Position numbers and translations under genes: made by a program
Shown here: positions 1,281 through 7,408 of the stretch, piece by piece
Numbering within the stretch: position 1 is the stretch's first letter
Layout of the letters: each line of letters starts with the position of its first letter
The notes under the pieces: generated by a model
What the model was told of the DNA's origin: nothing
Database searches by the model: none
What the model saw: only the letters and a program-made list of their open reading frames with translations
From: a virus
Taxonomy: Duplodnaviria > Heunggongvirae > Uroviricota > Caudoviricetes
IMG/VR virus record: IMGVR_UViG_2531839667_000007
DNA: 36,911 nucleotides
Reading direction: 5' to 3' (one strand)

Positions 1281-1848
1281 TATCGCGTCCTCAACAATGA
1301 ATTTTGTGATGCGGTGCCTGGTGCCTCCAGGTGACGTTAACCAGTTAACAATTAACGCCGGATACAGAGAATCCACCCATAACACTGTTTTTGGTTTTAA
1401 CTGTTCCGCGTGCGCTCAGCCGCATTCACCACATCACAAAATTCACTTTAAAAAGGGCGGCAGAGCAGTCACGGAGTAAAACTGATACCGCCAAACGTCA
1501 CCAGAAAATTGATAACAGAGGGCGTTGCAGCGGGGTTGTCACTTAAGCGTATGGTCAACCTGACAACCCGGTGTCCTCAACGGGGGAAGGAATAACCCCG
1601 CCATACTTACCGCCGCGCCATTTCGCGGATTGCCACAACCGGAAGCGCACGGTCGACGAAAATTTAACGACAGGCTATCTATGAACCAGCTACCTCGCCG
1701 TGCGCTTTCGCGTTATGGTCTGACTTTTCAGGGAAATATCCTTTCAGTAAACTGTCAATGCCGGATGCTCACCCGTGTCCGGCGCACGCACTCCACCTCA
1801 CCCGTGGAGAACTCCTTAATTACTAACCTTAGCTTTGTTGATTAGCTA

Positions 1849-2648: not shown

Positions 2649-3068
2649 TTATGATGCGTTTTGTGCTTTCTTTTTACGGATTTCTTCGTAGATCATATTG
2701 TAATACTGTTTTTTCTCTTCAAGAGTTTTTAATAAGTTATCCGCTTCACTTTCTGGCAGTTCGTCTAAGAGATCTAAAAAAATACGTTGTCGTGGCGTTA
2801 GAACCCTTGTTTCATAATTGGAGGCTGTGTTCGTTGATGATGAAACGATACCATCCATCCATCCCCGGGGTAACCCAAAGGACTCTTCTATAATCTCCAC
2901 CATATCATCAGCGATCCGTTTTTTTCCTTTTTTCCCCTCTGGGTACAACATTCTTGATACATAAGAAGGCTCGCGACCGATCTTTCTGGCCACGTTAACC
3001 GCTTTACCATCGCATTTCTCATCACGAATTTTGATGAGTTGTTGTCGTCTAAATTCATATTTGTCCAT
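2649..3068 (-). CDS. phage repressor (cI analogue), short HTH protein without LexA-like S24 peptidase domain
   Basis: 139 aa, HTH-like segment GKAVNVARKIGREPSYVSRMLY; divergent from cro-like gene; flanked by repeated operator-like sites. Confidence 0.75.
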   Translation of the reverse strand: MDKYEFRRQQLIKIRDEKCDGKAVNVARKIGREPSYVSRMLYPEGKKGKKRIADDMVEIIEESFGLPRGWMDGIVSSSTNTASNYETRVLTPRQRIFLDLLDELPESEADNLLKTLEEKKQYYNMIYEEIRKKKAQNAS

Positions 3069-3074
3069 AGGTAA

Positions 3075-3144
3075 ATAATAGATGCGATTACCGCAAGGTA
3101 AACAACCTAGGGGTATTGACTTTTGTTTACCTGTGGGTATTCTT
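3075..3144. promoter_or_regulatory. right operator/promoter region: sites ACCTAGGGGTAT (3105-3116) and ACCTGTGGGTAT (3129-3140); candidate PR -35 TTGACT (3116-3121) and -10 ATTCTT (3139-3144); candidate leaderless PRM with -10 TATTAT on minus strand (3075-3080)
   Basis: Operator-like repeats share ACCY-NN-GGGTAT core with the left sites; promoter hexamers read from sequence, not verified. Confidence 0.45.
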
Positions 3145-3168
3145 TACTGTGTTTACTAAGGAGTAGCT

Positions 3169-3450
3169 ATGGAAGAATTAAGAATATTTCTCAATTCTCT
3201 TTCGTCAGATGAACAGCGTATGTTTGCATGTGAGTGTGGTACTAGCATCGGTTATCTAAGAAAGGCATTGAGTAAAGGTCAAATCTTAGGGGCATCGTTA
3301 TGTGTCCTTATTGAGCGAGCCAGTAATGGTGAAGTTACACGTCAGCAACTAAGGCCTTTTGATTGGATGAATATTTGGCCCGAGCTGGAAGATACCAAAA
3401 CGTTAACACAACCACTTACTAGGAGCTTGATTCATGAAAATCAAGCATGA
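3169..3450 (+). CDS. Cro-like early regulator (YdaS-like HTH protein)
   Basis: 93 aa, divergent from repressor, AAGGAG SD 5 nt upstream; resemblance to Rac-prophage YdaS family is from recall. Confidence 0.65.
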   Translation: MEELRIFLNSLSSDEQRMFACECGTSIGYLRKALSKGQILGASLCVLIERASNGEVTRQQLRPFDWMNIWPELEDTKTLTQPLTRSLIHENQA

Positions 3451-3859
3451 ACACATCCGCATGGCGATGAATGCCTGGGCGCGTCCTGATGGCGAAAAAG
3501 TTCCAGCAGCTGGAATAACCCAGGCTTATTTTGAGTTGGGTATGACGTTTCCTGAACTGTATGACGACAGCCATCCGGAAGCCCTGGCTCGCAATACCCA
3601 GAAAATTTTCCGCTGGGTAGAGAAAGACACCCCTGATGCAGTTGAAAAAATTCAGGCGTTGTTACCAGCGATCGAAAAGGCAATGCCACCTTTGCTGGTG
3701 GCCAGAATGCGCAGCCACAGTTCAGCTTATTTTCGGGAGCTGGTGGAGACGCGGGAGCGATTGGTGAGAGACGCTGATGATTTTGTCGCAGTGGCAATCG
3801 CCGGTTTCAATCAGATGAACCGTGGTGGCCCGGCAGGAAATGCTGTGGCAGTACATTGA
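3434..3859 (+). CDS. YdaT-like protein (CII-position regulator of Rac-type prophages)
   Basis: 141 aa starting MKIKHEHI, as recalled for Rac YdaT; overlaps the cro-like gene end; AGGAG SD. Confidence 0.65.
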   Translation: MKIKHEHIRMAMNAWARPDGEKVPAAGITQAYFELGMTFPELYDDSHPEALARNTQKIFRWVEKDTPDAVEKIQALLPAIEKAMPPLLVARMRSHSSAYFRELVETRERLVRDADDFVAVAIAGFNQMNRGGPAGNAVAVH

Positions 3860-3930: not shown

Positions 3931-5001
3931 ATGGCTAACGCTTGGCTCAGATTATGGCATGACATGCCAAATGACCCTAAGTGGCGAACAATTGCCAGGG
4001 TGTCAGGGCAGCCAATTGCAACAGTGATGGCAGTGTATATCCACCTCCTGGTGAGCGCGTCACGAAATGTCACGCGAGGTCACATTGATGTCACGACAGA
4101 AGATTTGGCAAGTGCGCTCGACGTGACAGAAGAGGTAATTGATTCAATTTTGCAGACGATGCAGGGGCGGGTACTTGATGGTGATTTAATCACTGGATGG
4201 GAAAAACGCCAGGTGCTTAAAGAGGACAACGGCAATATTTCGCAAACCGCAAAATCTCCTGCAGAGCGCAAGAGGGCGCAGCGAGAGAGGGAAAGAAAGC
4301 GGGAACAAAATGGCGATTGTCACGGCGCGTCACGAAATGTCACGCACATGTCACGACGAGTCACGACAGATAAAGATACAGATAAAGATACAGATCAAGA
4401 AGATCAAAACACTATGGTCCATGGCGTAAAAAACGCCACGAACCAGGCAGGGGATGTTCAGACCGTCAATCTTGGTCAGCCAGCAGGCACGACACCGGAA
4501 GCCGATTCAGCGTATGCGCTGAAAGCCGATTCGGGCGCTGTGCAGCAGGTGATGACCGCAAGGCCGGAGCAATCACACCAACTGCAGCAGCCTGAAGCCG
4601 ATTCCGCCATTCTGCGGGAAGCCGATCGGGTAGTCCCGGAAAACACCGGGCAGTCTGTGGGACGAGTGGATTATCCGGATGTGTTCGAACAGGTCTGGCG
4701 GGAGTACCCGTTGCGTGCCGGAGCAAACCCGAAGAAATCCGCTTTCAGTGCCTGGAAGGCCAGATTACGCGAGGGGGTGCCACCAGAGGCCATGCTGGAT
4801 GGCGTGAGGCGTTACGCAAGATACTTGGCGGCTACCGGGAAAACGGGAACGGAATTTGTTCAGCGAGCGACGACGTTTTTAGGACCGGACCGGAATTTTG
4901 AGAACCCCTGGTTGCTCCCGGTAAGCGGTACGAACAACCAGCGTTGCGTGAATCACATTTCTGAACCAGATACCGAAATTCCACTGGGCTTCAGGGGGTA
5001 A
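3931..5001 (+). CDS. replication initiation protein (lambda O analogue) with internal iterons
   Basis: 356 aa from ATG 3931 (SD AGAAGAGG); position after cro/CII-like genes; contains two clusters of GTCACG direct repeats. Confidence 0.65.
   Translation: MANAWLRLWHDMPNDPKWRTIARVSGQPIATVMAVYIHLLVSASRNVTRGHIDVTTEDLASALDVTEEVIDSILQTMQGRVLDGDLITGWEKRQVLKEDNGNISQTAKSPAERKRAQRERERKREQNGDCHGASRNVTHMSRRVTTDKDTDKDTDQEDQNTMVHGVKNATNQAGDVQTVNLGQPAGTTPEADSAYALKADSGAVQQVMTARPEQSHQLQQPEADSAILREADRVVPENTGQSVGRVDYPDVFEQVWREYPLRAGANPKKSAFSAWKARLREGVPPEAMLDGVRRYARYLAATGKTGTEFVQRATTFLGPDRNFENPWLLPVSGTNNQRCVNHISEPDTEIPLGFRG
4059..4095. repeat. iteron cluster 1: GTCACG/GTCACA at 4059, 4069, 4079, 4090 (about 10-bp phasing)
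   Basis: Direct repeats read from sequence inside the replication gene; encode ASRNVTRGHIDVTT. Confidence 0.55.
4319..4390. repeat. iteron cluster 2: GTCACG at 4319, 4329, 4339, 4350, 4360 followed by AT-rich tandem ACAGATAAAGAT x2 (candidate origin)
   Basis: Direct repeats at helical phasing then AT-rich tandem repeat, as in lambda ori inside O. Confidence 0.55.
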
Positions 5002-5041: not shown

Positions 5042-5464
5042 GTGGCAAAAGTTTTTACACAAGAAGAGCGAGAAAAAATTAAAGGGCAGGTTGTTGAACT
5101 CGTACGCCAGAGTGGGCGTGAGACGTTACGGCAACTGGAAGTCAAGACAGGTGCGACAAGATATCTGATGAGCGTTCTCGCAAGAGAGCTGGTTGCCAGC
5201 GGCGATGTATACAACTCTGGTTACGGGTTGTTCCCGTCTGAACAGGCGCGTAAGGACTGGCAAAACGCCCGCAAAAAACTCTCAAGGGCAAATCTGAAGA
5301 AACCATCTGTGGTTGATCCTGACCTTATCTGGTCATTACCAGACGGAGAAATACGCCGCTACGACAGGCGTCAAAACATAATCTGTAGCGAGTGCCGGAA
5401 GAGCGAAGCTATGCAGCGTGTACTGGCTTTCTATCAGGGTAATTTTCAGAAGGTGCTGTTGTGA
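5042..5464 (+). CDS. hypothetical protein at the lambda P position (140 aa, GTG start)
   Basis: Track ORF; GTG start 4 nt after AGGAGG; not DnaC-like or lambda P-like by eye; C-terminal CSEC motif. Confidence 0.55.
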   Translation: MAKVFTQEEREKIKGQVVELVRQSGRETLRQLEVKTGATRYLMSVLARELVASGDVYNSGYGLFPSEQARKDWQNARKKLSRANLKKPSVVDPDLIWSLPDGEIRRYDRRQNIICSECRKSEAMQRVLAFYQGNFQKVLL

Positions 5465-5569
5465 GCCAAATTAACAATCGGAACTTCGTGAAGAGAAAGC
5501 ATAATCCAAATCTGAATAATTAAGTTCAGCACTGTAAATAAAATTTAATCCTTAACTGGAGGTATATCT

Positions 5570-5683
5570 ATGTCAAATACACAGAAAATTATTAACACTG
5601 AAAAATATAACGAGTGGGTGAAAAATTCTCTGAGCAGATTTTTAAAATTACTGGCGACGAGAATGTGGCAAAAAATGAATTAG
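5570..5683 (+). CDS. small ORF (37 aa, MSNTQKIINTEKYNEWVKNSLSRFLKLLATRMWQKMN)
   Basis: Own translation; ATG 7 nt after GGAGG; AT-rich segment. Confidence 0.3.
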   Translation: MSNTQKIINTEKYNEWVKNSLSRFLKLLATRMWQKMN

Positions 5684-5813
5684 AACCGTGGACACCTGAA
5701 GGAAACGCACCAAATTATTGCTGGTGGGAGGTTGATCCGGTTGATGCTGCAAATGAAGCCATGAGTTACCACAACGATTAATGTCGGGAGGCCGCCCGAA
5801 AGGGCGGTAAGAA

Positions 5814-6032
5814 ATGACTACATTATTCAGAAAAGAATATCCGCAAAAAAGTAGGGCGACAGAATTTTTGTTTCTCATTCTGTTTATCGTATTGATGATA
5901 CCGATATCCCCTCTAATTTTTGTCTGGGCAATCGGGAAAATAATTGAGCCAGTTACTGAATTGTATACCGACGTTGTATGGGCGTCGTTCAACACACTGC
6001 ACAATAAAATTAATCCGTATAAGGAAAACTGA
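5814..6032 (+). CDS. small predicted membrane protein (72 aa)
   Basis: Track ORF; hydrophobic stretch FLFLILFIVLMIPISPLIFVWAIG; SD-like AAGGGCGG lies inside hairpin 5792-5807. Confidence 0.4.
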   Translation: MTTLFRKEYPQKSRATEFLFLILFIVLMIPISPLIFVWAIGKIIEPVTELYTDVVWASFNTLHNKINPYKEN

Positions 6033-6033
6033 T

Positions 6034-6297
6034 ATGGCAACTTTGACAAAAAAAGAACGGGCATGGTTGAACGAATTACAGGAAGTTCTTGATCGCTGTC
6101 CATCACCGAAAAAAATTGGCTTTTACACCATTGGCGATAAAAGCATTTACCTGTATGACCTACGCCGCATGGATGAAATCATGGAGGCTCTTGATAATCG
6201 TTCGTCGATGGATTGGTGTGTTGCTGTTCATGATATGAATGCAGGGTTTGATGAAAAGATTTTGTTCCCCTCATCAGTTGAAAGCACTGCGGGTTAA
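6034..6297 (+). CDS. hypothetical protein (87 aa from MATLTKKERAW)
   Basis: Internal ATG of track ORF 5944..6297, AAGGAAAA SD. Confidence 0.5.
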   Translation: MATLTKKERAWLNELQEVLDRCPSPKKIGFYTIGDKSIYLYDLRRMDEIMEALDNRSSMDWCVAVHDMNAGFDEKILFPSSVESTAG

Positions 6298-6307
6298 GGA
6301 GTAACAC

Positions 6308-6961
6308 ATGACCACTATTACCAAAGAACGTATTGAATTGTTCATTAAAAATCCGCTTGAAAACGGGCTTACCCGTGGTGAACAAATGGAACTGGCACGG
6401 ATTGCGCTGGCATCGCTGGAAGCAGAGCCGGTGGCAAAGATTATAGCTCATTACCCATTAGGAGTTGACGTAGGCAAACAAAAGTTCGTACAGGCCATTG
6501 GAGAGCTTCCTGACTTTGGCGGATATCTATTTGCCGCCCCTCCAGCGCCGATAGTGCCGGAAGAAATGTATTGGCAGGATGCGCCAGTTGAAGGCAGCAG
6601 CAAAGCGGCTGCATACGCTACAGGCTGGAACGATTGCCGCGAAGCCATGCTTCAGTCCGGAAACTTTCGGGAAAATAAAGATTCGTCAACCAATAATTTT
6701 CGGAAAATCCCGGAAGCGTCAACCAGCTCTCCGGTAACTCCGGCTCTTCTGCCTGGTGGTTTCACCATTGAGGATGCGAAGGATTTACATGAAGACCTGG
6801 TGCGCAGCCACATAAGCCAGGCTTTAAGTAGCGAAAAGATGAAAAAGAAAGATCGCGATGCTGATTTGCGTTGGATCCATGGCGTTATAGTTCAGGCAGC
6901 GTGGTTTGTGAAAGCATCACTGGAAGCGTTGCCTGAACTGTCGCAGGAGGTGAATCAATGA
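6308..6961 (+). CDS. hypothetical phage protein (217 aa)
   Basis: Track ORF; ATG after TAAGGAG; family not recognised. Confidence 0.6.
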   Translation: MTTITKERIELFIKNPLENGLTRGEQMELARIALASLEAEPVAKIIAHYPLGVDVGKQKFVQAIGELPDFGGYLFAAPPAPIVPEEMYWQDAPVEGSSKAAAYATGWNDCREAMLQSGNFRENKDSSTNNFRKIPEASTSSPVTPALLPGGFTIEDAKDLHEDLVRSHISQALSSEKMKKKDRDADLRWIHGVIVQAAWFVKASLEALPELSQEVNQ

Positions 6962-7076: not shown

Positions 7077-7252
7077 TGCTGCGGGTGCTTGAGGCTATCT
7101 GTCTCAGGCATGAACACCAAAAGGCAGATAGAGAAAAGCCCCAGTTAACATTACGCGTCCGGCAAGACGCTTAACATTAATCTGAGGCCATATCTATGCT
7201 CTACACACGTAGGTTAGCCTCTTACGTGCCGAAAGGCAAGGAGAAGCAGGCT

Positions 7253-7408
7253 ATGAAGCAGCAAAAGGCGATGCTTATCGCCCTGATCGTCATCTGTTTA
7301 ACCGTCATTGTGACGGCACTGGTAACGAGGAAAGACCTCTGCGAGGTACGACTCCGAACCGGCCAGACGGAGGTCGCTGTCTTCACAGCTTACGAACCTG
7401 AGGAGTAA
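7253..7408 (+). CDS. hok: Hok/Gef family type I toxin (51 aa)
   Basis: MKQQKAMLIALIVICLTVIVTALVTRKDLCEVRLRTGQTEVAVFTAYEPEE aligns with plasmid R1 Hok along its length; strong SD AAGGCAAGGAGAAG; in-frame upstream ATG at 7196. Confidence 0.8.
   Translation: MKQQKAMLIALIVICLTVIVTALVTRKDLCEVRLRTGQTEVAVFTAYEPEE

What the first reader, a model, noticed from the sequence alone, without database searches (positions are those of the whole stretch)
5465..6300. AT-rich cluster of small ORFs in the nin-like region, one with its SD inside a hairpin
An AT-rich block holds a 37-aa ORF (5570-5683), a 72-aa membrane protein (5814-6032) and an 87-aa ORF (6034-6297). The SD of the membrane protein lies within the stem-loop CCGCCCGAAAGGGCGG (5792-5807), suggesting translational control. 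The composition contrasts with the GC-rich flanks, consistent with acquired cargo.
Basis: seen in the sequence. Interest (0 to 1): 0.4.

Follow-up and report, generated by a model that had tools for sequence, protein, structure and literature searches.

The report
Prophage gene start split by hairpin
An AT-rich block of three small, conserved accessory genes in an E. coli lambdoid prophage, where a very stable RNA hairpin sits between the ribosome-binding site and the start codon of a small membrane protein, an arrangement known from phage T4 and here reused in front of many unrelated prophage genes.

Summary
The window is a Qin/Rac-like lambdoid prophage of E. coli strain D1. The sequence features are real, but two readings need correcting.

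- **The 37-aa ORF.** It is the front half of a 70-aa gene (5570-5781) broken by a 1-base deletion in an A-run.
- **The Shine-Dalgarno (SD) sequence.** The strong SD of the 72-aa DUF4014 membrane protein (GGGAGG, 5786-5791) is not inside the hairpin. It lies immediately 5' of it. The hairpin CCGCCC-GAAA-GGGCGG (5792-5807, about -12 to -15 kcal/mol) separates it from the ATG by 22 nt, or 6 nt if the hairpin is looped out.

This is the geometry of the T4 gene 38 split translation initiation region.

- **Spread.** The SD-hairpin module matches in 2635 of 5426 complete E. coli genomes, up to 9 places per genome.
- **Mosaic joint.** It precedes at least six unrelated genes whose start codons lie 6-11 nt after the stem. 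Five of these have no SD of their own.
- **Hairpin-less copies.** Copies of two of those genes without the hairpin carry an ordinary SD.

All three ORFs are under purifying selection and have no known function.

Verdict: a probable new example of a known kind of translation signal. There is no covariation and no experimental support. Moderate interest.

The parts
5465..5569 (+). AT-rich intergenic spacer (31% GC) after the DUF977 gene. It ends with the SD GGAGG (5558-5562), 7 nt before the ATG of the 70-aa gene. The stretch ...AATCCTTAAC(T/C)GGAGG is conserved in related prophages.
5570..5781 (+). Frameshifted copy of a 70-aa phage gene (phrog_4659). The intact product is MSNTQKIINTEKYNEWVKKFSEQIFKITGDENVAKNELEPWTPEGNAPNYCWWEVDPVDAANEAMSYHND. 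The rest of the gene reads in the frame of the 5614-5781 ORF.
   Evidence: RefSeq note 'frameshifted'; alignment to the intact O157 copy; intact copies in IMG/VR contigs; phrog hit E 4.8e-51; dN/dS 0.19 among intact copies
5621..5625 (+). A5 run, the site of the 1-base deletion. Intact alleles have A6, or AAGAAAA in the O157 type.
   Evidence: the A5 allele occurs in strain D1 and in contigs from four other IMG sources, against 25 A6 loci (some loci are the same contig fetched twice)
5781..5810 (+). Nine-codon mini-ORF MSGGRPKGR*. Its ATG overlaps the TAA stop of the 70-aa gene (TAATG). Its own TAA lies 3 nt before the DUF4014 ATG. It covers exactly the SD plus the hairpin. Translation is not shown, and related prophages that lack the 70-aa gene have no start codon for it.
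   Evidence: contexts
5786..5791 (+). Shine-Dalgarno sequence GGGAGG (AGGAGG in most relatives), 22 nt upstream of the DUF4014 ATG.
   Evidence: anti-SD duplex -10.3 kcal/mol, the strongest in 5775-5816; conserved in nearly all contexts
5792..5807 (+). Hairpin CCGCCC-GAAA-GGGCGG: 6 G-C pairs with a GNRA tetraloop, extended by a G5791-U5808 pair. No T-run follows it.
   Evidence: fold energies and z-scores; pairing probability at least 0.9 in 25 of 26 sequence contexts; invariant columns -7 to +16 across 35 upstream/downstream combinations
5808..5813 (+). A-rich 6-nt spacer TAAGAA between the stem and the ATG. It contains no SD.
5814..6032 (+). DUF4014 family gene, 72 aa, with a basic N-terminus and a single predicted transmembrane segment. 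Function unknown.
   Evidence: Pfam PF13198 91.8 bits; phrog_1832; 132 clusters, those with a source name from Escherichia, Salmonella or Shigella; dN/dS 0.20; hydropathy
6034..6297 (+). 87-aa soluble phage protein (phrog_1714). It starts 1 nt after the DUF4014 stop. Its SD AAGGA (6021-6025) lies 8 nt upstream of its ATG.
   Evidence: dN/dS 0.08 against the Edwardsiella copy; AlphaFold2 pLDDT 90.5 with no known fold relative
6308..6961 (+). Next gene of the chain, a 217-aa ORF with an Ead/Ea22-type N-terminus (MTTITKER...). Its canonical SD AAGGAG (6296-6301) overlaps the previous stop codon, 6 nt before the ATG. RefSeq splits it into a partial pseudogene and an internal-start CDS.

Best explanation
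**What the block is.** It is the start of the variable accessory-gene chain that follows the replication genes in a Qin/Rac-type lambdoid prophage. The genes are a decayed 70-aa gene, the DUF4014 membrane protein, an 87-aa protein and an Ead-like gene. All are on the + strand with 1-32 nt between neighbours, so a shared early-rightward transcript is likely (inferred).

**How DUF4014 is translated (proposed).** It has a split, or noncontiguous, translation initiation region.
- The SD GGGAGG is 22 nt from the AUG, too far to work in linear form.
- A very stable GNRA-capped hairpin occupies 16 of those 22 nt.
- When the hairpin forms, the SD and the AUG are held about 6 nt apart, so the 30S subunit can engage both.
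- This is the mechanism reported for T4 genes 38 and 25.

**Why the cassette is conserved (proposed).** The SD-plus-hairpin unit is a fixed piece at a mosaic joint. Recombination just 3' of the stem places different genes without their own SD behind the same ribosome-binding signal.

**Shown:** the anatomy, the predicted stability, the conservation, the start-codon spacing in many contexts, and the canonical SDs in hairpin-less copies.

**Inferred:** that the hairpin forms in vivo, and that it promotes rather than hinders initiation.
For: 1. **Geometry.** SD (-10.3 kcal/mol to the anti-SD), then a 16-nt hairpin, then 6 nt, then ATG. No in-frame upstream start is possible, because TAA 5808-5810 is in the DUF4014 frame.

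2. **Comparison with T4 gene 38, read here.** UAAGGAG, then AGGGGC-UUCG-GCCCUU, then CUAAAU, then AUG; the 44-nt region folds at -16.7 kcal/mol. The design is the same: SD, a G+C-rich stem with a stable tetraloop, a 6-nt A/U spacer, AUG. The literature reports that T4 gene 38 spacing drops from 22 to 5 nt and gene 25 from 27 to 11 nt, and that destabilising mutations reduce initiation (PMC3014915, section 29; PMC7297116).

3. **Many downstream genes.** In IMG/VR prophage contigs the identical module precedes at least six unrelated genes, with the start codon 6, 7, 8, 9, 9 and 11 nt after the stem. These include DUF4014, a 60-aa acidic protein and Ead-like genes. Only the +11 class has its own GGAG in the spacer.

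4. **Paired comparisons.**
   - DUF4014 copies without the hairpin (the variants lacking it; phage 933W homology likewise begins only after the start codon) carry AAAGGAG followed by 6 nt before the same start-codon position.
   - The MTELTKE gene without the hairpin has AAGGA 8-9 nt upstream of its ATG.

5. **Hairpin stability across contexts.** It is predicted to form with probability at least 0.9 in 25 of 26 flanking contexts.

6. **Sharp conservation boundary.** Columns -7 to +16 are invariant across 35 combinations of upstream and downstream sequence clusters. Conservation falls after the two bases that follow the stem. Flanking genes show dS of about 0.2.

7. **Not an intrinsic terminator.** No T-run follows the stem. 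Many of the 120 unrelated genomes carrying the same 18-mer have a T-run after it, and none of the 120 has GGAG immediately upstream.

8. **Prevalence.** A 32-nt query containing the module matches 2635 of 5426 complete E. coli genomes at 4816 places.
Against: - No experiment or expression data for this element was found.
- There is no compensatory covariation, because the stem is nearly invariant.
- The polymorphism test in E. coli genomes was inconclusive. The central pair shows only the G-U-preserving change (C9T in 216 records, G18A in 0). Pair-breaking changes do occur at the loop-closing pair (G16A in 29 records, C11T in 9) and at the second pair (G20A in at least 2 records, C7T in 1-2).
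- The hairpin persists in a few contigs where no + strand gene follows it (L157, L046). So it may have another or an additional role.
- In the variant with the 70-aa gene, a mini-ORF across the hairpin offers a different route to DUF4014 translation.
- Predicted SD accessibility is only moderate, 0.2-0.8.
Confidence: 0.5

Rival explanations
1. The hairpin is mainly a structural or genomic landmark rather than part of the ribosome-binding site. It could be an mRNA stabiliser or processing barrier at the end of the upstream cistron. It could also be a short conserved linker at which prophages recombine. Downstream genes would then be translated through their A-rich leaders or by coupling, and the adjacent GGAGG would matter little.
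For: - The module stays with the 70-aa gene when the downstream DNA is replaced by reverse-strand cargo (L157).
- It is the sharp boundary of homology between alternative gene sets.
- Some contigs carry two copies 1064 nt apart flanking a gene cassette.
- Relaxed homologous recombination at short shared sequences is documented for temperate phages (PMC2327257, PMC3945230).
- Conserved stem-loop cassettes mediate gene shuffling in T4-type phages (PMC2839356, PMC4122927).
Against: - A pure DNA linker does not explain why the start codon is always 6-11 nt after the stem.
- It does not explain why five of six downstream gene classes lack their own SD.
- It does not explain why a strong SD is always fused to the 5' side of the stem.
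- It does not explain why hairpin-less copies of the same genes carry canonical SDs.
- This role is compatible with the split initiation region rather than exclusive of it.
Confidence: 0.22
2. The hairpin is a brake. It keeps the SD too far from the AUG, or hides a weak internal SD (AAGGG / AGGGCGGU). Translation of a potentially harmful membrane protein would stay low until the stem is opened.
For: - A secondary anti-SD match lies in the 3' arm (-7.8 kcal/mol, 10 nt from the ATG).
- Stable structure in initiation regions is usually inhibitory (general principle cited in PMC7297116).
- DUF4014 is a small membrane protein.
Against: - The much stronger SD is outside the stem.
- The same module precedes soluble, acidic and Ead-like proteins too, so it is not specific to a toxic product.
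- The near-identical T4 gene 38 design is reported to enhance initiation (PMC3014915).
- Opening a stem of about -12 to -15 kcal/mol to expose a -7.8 site is energetically unfavourable.
Confidence: 0.12
3. Relay by a leader mini-ORF. Ribosomes finishing the 70-aa gene restart at the overlapping ATG (TAATG). They translate MSGGRPKGR through the hairpin, stop at TAA 3 nt before the DUF4014 ATG, and reinitiate there.
For: - The mini-ORF 5781-5810 brackets the SD plus the hairpin exactly.
- The stop/start overlap and the 3-nt stop-to-start gap are classic coupling geometry (established knowledge).
- The only difference seen in the mini-ORF between the window and the O157 copy is synonymous (TCG to TCA).
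Against: - Most occurrences of the module (those without the 70-aa gene) have ACA in place of the ATG, so they have no mini-ORF.
- In this window the 70-aa gene is frameshifted and stops at 5683, so coupling cannot operate here.
- The peptide sequence is dictated by the hairpin, so its conservation carries no information.
Confidence: 0.08
4. The GNRA-capped hairpin is an operator for an RNA-binding protein, a boxB-like site for an arginine-rich phage regulator or a translational repressor.
For: The core GCCC-GAAA-GGGC resembles lambda boxB, GCCCUGAAAAAGGGC (from memory, not tested). Two of the three loop variants seen, GGAA and GGCA, keep GNRA; the third, UAAA, does not.
Against: - No boxA-like sequence is conserved upstream, and the two upstream contexts differ completely.
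- The position, after the replication genes, is not where nut sites lie.
- No N-like gene is annotated in the 13-kb stretch examined, which spans exonuclease through DicB and the immunity region to the late-region tRNA genes.
- No Rfam family matches.
Confidence: 0.04

Closest known systems
Split (noncontiguous) translation initiation regions of phage T4 genes 38 and 25
   Same: An SD lies 22 nt (gene 38) or 27 nt (gene 25) from the AUG, with a stable stem-loop filling the gap. Folding brings the spacing to 5-11 nt. In T4 gene 38, read here, the order is SD, a G+C-rich stem with a tetraloop, a 6-nt A/U spacer and AUG, with an energy similar to this element (PMC3014915).
   Different: There is no sequence homology. 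The tetraloop is GAAA here and UUCG in T4. The host genome is a temperate lambdoid prophage, not a T-even phage. The cassette serves many alternative downstream genes at a mosaic joint rather than one fixed gene. It has not been tested experimentally.
Noncontiguous initiation regions of E. coli thrS and rpmE
   Same: A hairpin inside the ribosome-binding region is tolerated by the 30S subunit (PMC7297116 and the references it cites).
   Different: In those genes the hairpin is an operator bound by the gene's own product for autoregulation. No such protein partner is known or indicated here.
PeSL cassettes (promoter-early stem-loops) of T4-type phages
   Same: A short conserved motif containing a stem-loop flanks variable ORFs and marks the points where genes are swapped (PMC2839356, PMC4122927). 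Two copies can bracket a cassette.
   Different: PeSLs combine an early promoter with a terminator-like stem-loop. This module has no promoter-like site and no T-run. It carries an SD instead.
Chain of interlinked small genes in the lambda ninR region
   Same: Small accessory genes lie between the replication genes and the Q-like antiterminator, with stops and starts overlapping or 1-10 nt apart. The comparison with lambda ninR rests on general knowledge.
   Different: The genes are not homologous to lambda nin genes. All three ORFs here have no assigned function.
Intrinsic (Rho-independent) terminators
   Same: The same G+C-rich GAAA-capped stem occurs with a T-run after it, as in intrinsic terminators, in many unrelated bacteria.
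   Different: Here no T-run follows (TAAGAAATG), and a gene starts 6 nt later.

Membership tests
Split / noncontiguous translation initiation region (T4 gene 38/25 type) | A strong SD lies too far from the start codon in the linear sequence (about 20-27 nt) | tested here: met
   GGGAGG 5786-5791, ATG 5814, 22 nt between them
Split / noncontiguous translation initiation region (T4 gene 38/25 type) | A stable stem-loop lies wholly between the SD and the AUG, and folding gives a functional spacing of 5-11 nt | tested here: met
   A 16-nt hairpin of -12.4 to -15.5 kcal/mol leaves 6 nt here and 6-11 nt in other gene contexts
Split / noncontiguous translation initiation region (T4 gene 38/25 type) | No competing canonical SD at normal distance from the AUG | tested here: met
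   The spacer TAAGAA has no SD. The best alternative, AGGGCGGU (-7.8 kcal/mol), is inside the stem. One of six downstream gene classes (+11) does have its own GGAG.
Split / noncontiguous translation initiation region (T4 gene 38/25 type) | The structure is conserved among relatives, ideally with compensatory changes | tested here: inconclusive
   The stem is nearly invariant and no double compensatory change was seen. Single changes in E. coli genomes: C9T in 216 records against G18A in 0; C11T in 9 against G16A in 29; C7T in 1-2 against G20A in at least 2.
Split / noncontiguous translation initiation region (T4 gene 38/25 type) | Destabilising the stem lowers translation, and restoring it rescues translation | not testable with these tools
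   Needs reporter fusions or toeprinting
DUF4014 (Pfam PF13198) | Full-length match above the Pfam gathering score | tested here: met
   91.8 bits against 23.2, residues 1-72 on profile positions 1-72
Intrinsic terminator | A G+C-rich stem-loop followed by a U-tract | tested here: not met
   The stem is present but TAAGAAATG follows it. It is not reported by the terminator scan.
Lambda-type nut site (boxA + boxB) | A boxA element a few nt upstream of a GNRA-like hairpin, located just downstream of an early promoter | tested here: not met
   The two upstream contexts share no boxA-like sequence. The site lies after the replication genes. There is no Rfam match.
PeSL-type mobile regulatory cassette | A conserved motif combining an early promoter with a terminator stem-loop, repeated at the borders of variable genes | tested here: not met
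   It is repeated at gene borders, but no promoter-like site or T-run is associated with it

The most novel reading that the evidence does not exclude
The SD-plus-hairpin unit may be a portable translation adaptor. On this reading it is a fixed, self-folding ribosome-binding cassette that also serves as the recombination joint where lambdoid prophages exchange cargo genes lacking a promoter and an SD. Any ORF dropped 6-11 nt behind the stem would be expressed at once. That would make it a functional analogue, at the level of translation, of integron or PeSL-type cassette systems, and one present in about half of all sequenced E. coli genomes.
Probability: 0.2. Interest if true: 0.6.

Novelty: new member of a known kind. 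Interest (0 to 1): 0.42.

Why it matters
- **A second natural family of split ribosome-binding sites.** If the reading is right, this adds one far more widespread than the T4 examples. The module matches in 2635 of 5426 complete E. coli genomes, up to 9 places each.
- **Gene annotation.** Start-codon and SD-based gene callers assume contiguous sites, so this architecture can mislead them.
- **Prophage evolution.** It suggests how temperate phages keep newly acquired small genes translatable at a recombination hot spot.
- **Open questions.** DUF4014 and the 87-aa protein are common, selected and still of unknown function. The 87-aa protein has a confident predicted fold with no known relative.

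If the reading is wrong, this is an ordinary conserved intergenic hairpin in an ordinary accessory-gene block.

Tried and rejected
- **Rfam.** No family matches at 5400-6400, even at E up to 10.
- **Species-representative genome scan for the 18-mer**. This shows the hairpin sequence itself is generic. The scan was useful only as a negative control.
- **Covariation.** Not possible, because the stem is almost invariant.
- **Strand-specific polymorphism test with mutated 32-mers**. The result was mixed, so it is not used as support. The first two runs, at E up to 10, were contaminated by truncated alignments.
- **L121.** The apparent independent occurrence of the module lies inside a 218-aa ORF of a different phage, so it is a chance match.
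- **Second pattern hit in the window, at 9906.** The stem is followed by a T-run and lies between the Q-like gene and the next gene, so I read it as a terminator.
- **Programmed frameshifting at the A5 run.** Considered and rejected. G-AAA-AAU is not a slippery heptamer, and the run is too short for transcriptional slippage (inference from established rules).
- **Function of the proteins.**
  - NCBIfam and PADLOC gave no matches for any of them.
  - PDB sequence searches of the 70-aa and 87-aa proteins gave nothing significant.
  - The label 'sugar/O-polysaccharide acetyltransferase inhibitor' that some sources give to DUF4014 has no traceable paper in the library.
- **Reverse-strand cargo after the hairpin in L157.** No PADLOC match.
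Full report
**Origin and setting**

The window is 100% identical to the chromosome of E. coli strain D1, NZ_CP010134.1. RefSeq annotation of the surrounding DNA shows a Qin/Rac-type lambdoid prophage. Its gene order is:
- exonuclease, ydfD, dicB, ydfC;
- a repressor/Cro-like pair and a YdaT-family gene;
- an IS911-family insertion;
- a replisome organizer (window 3931-5001) and DUF977 (5042-5464);
- the region in question;
- hokD, DUF968, RusA, a DUF1133 (Q-like) gene, a DNA methyltransferase and three tRNA genes.

Calling it a 'nin-like region' is therefore fair.

**Checking the observation**

- **Composition.** The block 5465-6300 has 39.2% GC against 51.6% for the whole window. It falls in the lowest 1.4% of windows of that size.
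- **ORFs.** The three ORFs are at the stated coordinates.
- **Hairpin.** CCGCCCGAAAGGGCGG is at 5792-5807. It folds as six G-C pairs capped by a GAAA tetraloop, extended by a G5791-U5808 pair. The 16-nt stem-loop alone gives -12.4 kcal/mol. The 31-nt segment gives -15.5 kcal/mol, z = -3.3, and no shuffle folds as well.

Two statements do not hold.

1. **The 37-aa ORF is a fragment.** RefSeq annotates 5570-5781 as one frameshifted gene. Alignment with an intact copy in O157:H7 strain 8368 shows a single missing base in the run at 5621-5625. Closely related contigs with six A encode a 70-aa protein, which matches phrog_4659. The five-A allele recurs in contigs from four other IMG sources, so it is probably a real circulating allele rather than an assembly error.
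2. **The SD is not in the stem.** Scanning 5775-5816 against the 3' end of 16S rRNA gives the best duplex at GGGAGG, 5786-5791, directly 5' of the stem (-10.3 kcal/mol). The best site inside the stem gives -7.8 and is paired.

**The ORFs**

- **The 72-aa product** is a full-length DUF4014 protein with one strongly hydrophobic segment. The family is narrow: 132 clusters at 65% identity or more, and those with a source name come from Escherichia, Salmonella or Shigella.
- **The 87-aa product** (phrog_1714) is wider spread among Enterobacterales (Klebsiella, Enterobacter, Edwardsiella, Pectobacterium, Serratia). It sits in different early regions of different prophages.
- **Selection.** dN/dS is 0.20 for DUF4014, 0.19 for the 70-aa gene and 0.08 for the 87-aa gene. 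All three are real protein-coding genes.
- **Function.** None could be assigned. The 87-aa protein gives a confident AlphaFold2 model (pLDDT 90.5) with no structural relative in the PDB or BFVD.
- **Spacing.** The genes are tightly chained. The DUF4014 stop is 1 nt from the next ATG, and the SD of the fourth gene overlaps the stop of the third.

**The hairpin in context**

I collected DUF4014 loci from IMG/VR without reference to the hairpin. Two kinds of 5' end appeared.
- Most have [A/G]GGAGG, then CCGCCCGAAAGGGCGG, then TAA(G/T)(A/G)A, then ATG.
- The rest have AAAGGAG followed by AGTGAT and then GTG or ATG at the same codon position. This is a canonical SD with a 6-nt spacer and no hairpin. 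Phage 933W homology to the window likewise starts only after the start codon.

So the spacer after the hairpin equals the spacer after the ordinary SD.

I then searched for the 21-mer itself and clustered the flanks.
- **Downstream.** The identical module precedes at least six unrelated genes. Start codons lie 6 to 11 nt after the stem. Only the +11 class has an SD-like GGAG in the spacer.
- **Upstream.** Immediately upstream there are two alternatives: the end of the 70-aa gene, or a 40-nt segment in prophages that lack that gene.
- **Combinations.** Thirty-five upstream/downstream combinations were seen.
- **Boundary.** Conservation is complete from -7 to +16 and falls after the two bases that follow the stem.

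A second paired comparison agrees. The MTELTKE gene has the hairpin module when it comes first in the chain. When it follows DUF4014 it has an ordinary AAGGA 8-9 nt upstream of its ATG. The hairpin is predicted to form with probability at least 0.9 in 25 of 26 contexts. A 32-nt query containing the module matches 2635 of 5426 complete E. coli genomes at 4816 places, up to nine per genome.

**Interpretation**

The design is the one described for T4 genes 38 and 25. There an over-long SD-AUG distance (22 and 27 nt) is reduced to 5 and 11 nt by an intervening stem-loop, and destabilising mutations lower initiation (PMC3014915, section 29; PMC7297116). I read the T4 gene 38 region directly. It runs UAAGGAG, AGGGGC-UUCG-GCCCUU, CUAAAU, AUG, and the 44-nt region folds at -16.7 kcal/mol. 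That parallels GGGAGG, CCGCCC-GAAA-GGGCGG, UAAGAA, AUG almost element for element.

The best-supported explanation is therefore a split translation initiation region. The added feature is that the SD-hairpin cassette sits at a mosaic joint and serves many alternative downstream genes.

**Limits**

- Nothing here is experimental.
- The stem is too conserved for covariation.
- In the unbiased samples all stem substitutions were C-to-T changes in the 5' arm that keep G-U pairing. I tested this in E. coli genomes with mutated queries and the result was mixed.
  - C9T occurs in 216 records and its pair-breaking partner G18A in none.
  - G16A occurs in 29 records against 9 for C11T.
  - G20A occurs at least as often as C7T.
  
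  I count this as inconclusive.
- In a few contigs the hairpin is followed by reverse-strand cargo and no + strand gene (L157, L046). A role as recombination joint, or as a barrier at the end of the upstream message, cannot be excluded and may coexist with the translational role.
- In the variant present in this window, a nine-codon mini-ORF (5781-5810) overlaps the stop of the 70-aa gene, spans the SD and hairpin exactly, and stops 3 nt before the DUF4014 ATG. This could be a coupling relay. It is absent from most occurrences of the module, and the frameshift disables it here.

**What it is not**

- **Not an intrinsic terminator.** No T-run follows it, and the terminator scan does not report it. 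Many unrelated genomes carrying the same 18-mer do have a T-run after it.
- **Not a nut site.** There is no shared boxA-like sequence, and it is in the wrong place.
- **Not a known RNA family**.
- **Not a PeSL.** It has no promoter.
- **Not replicated in L121.** The one apparent occurrence in an unrelated phage lies inside a coding sequence and is a chance match.

**Verdict**

The sequence features are real. The block is a set of conserved accessory phage genes of unknown function, one of them decayed. The hairpin is best read as the middle of a split ribosome-binding site, not as a trap for the SD. This is a probable new member of a known kind of signal. It is notable for its prevalence and for its position at a gene-swapping joint. 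I found no description of it in the searchable literature.

Noticed in passing
L327, L360 and many other related loci (no counterpart in the window): In prophages that lack the 70-aa gene, the 40 nt before the module read CCGGAGGGATTTCTGCACCCTCAGAACATCAGGAGG. An anti-SD-like CCCUC sits between two SD-like sequences and could pair with either one. Predicted SD accessibility is lower in this context (0.3-0.5) than in the window's context (0.66-0.79). This may be a small switch.
   Followed up: partly
L095, L116, L150, L159: Some prophage contigs carry two copies of the intergenic segment plus the SD-hairpin, 1064 nt apart. They bracket DUF4014, the 87-aa gene, a truncated Ead-like ORF and a 118-aa gene. 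A 60-aa acidic gene follows the second copy. This looks like a cassette insertion by recombination at the repeated module.
   Followed up: partly
L157, about 28-1512 nt after the hairpin, reverse strand (partial copy in L046): A two-gene reverse-strand insert (a 184-aa multi-pass membrane protein and a 310-aa protein) directly abuts the hairpin where + strand genes normally start. It has no PADLOC match. In L046 the adjacent SD is mutated to GGAAG.
   Followed up: partly
window 6308-6961: A single 217-aa ORF with an Ead/Ea22-type N-terminus is split by RefSeq into a partial pseudogene (6308-6457) and an in-frame internal-start CDS (6431-6961). The CDS is named 'dTDP-6-deoxy-L-hexose 3-O-methyltransferase', a name that Pfam and NCBIfam do not support. 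It is probably a chimeric mosaic gene with a doubtful annotation.
   Followed up: partly
window 2671-3839, - strand: An IS3-family IS911 transposase with a programmed frameshift is inserted between the YdaT-family gene and the replisome-organizer gene. It may cut the early-rightward operon off from its promoter.
   Followed up: no
window 7083-7408: A hokD/sok type I toxin-antitoxin locus lies about 800 nt downstream of the block. Rfam sok matches at 7083-7258 (117 bits), and the hokD CDS is at 7253-7408.
   Followed up: no
window 1455-1506 (- strand); 11503-11749; 11829-12018: Other RNA genes in the window: DicF sRNA next to dicB, three tRNA genes (Ile, Arg, Arg), and an STnc100 sRNA match (132 bits) after the tRNAs.
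   Followed up: no
window 9910-9927: The hairpin AGCCACCGGAAGGTGGTT is followed by a T-run, between the DUF1133 (Q-like) gene and the next gene. It is probably a late-operon terminator of the tR' type. My split-site pattern scan picked it up as a false positive.
   Followed up: no
L205, L214, L221, L228, L267 (Enterobacteriaceae chromosomes): The same 18-nt hairpin occurs at a conserved chromosomal junction in several enterobacterial genera. It lies right after a stop codon and about 10 nt before GGGAG and an ATG (...TAA..CA-hairpin-TGTTGTATGGGAGTCACCATG). This is unrelated to the prophage module.
   Followed up: no
H37 (NZ_CP076272.1) and L083 (phage ArgO145): Some relatives have an HNH endonuclease gene beside or within this accessory block.
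   Followed up: no
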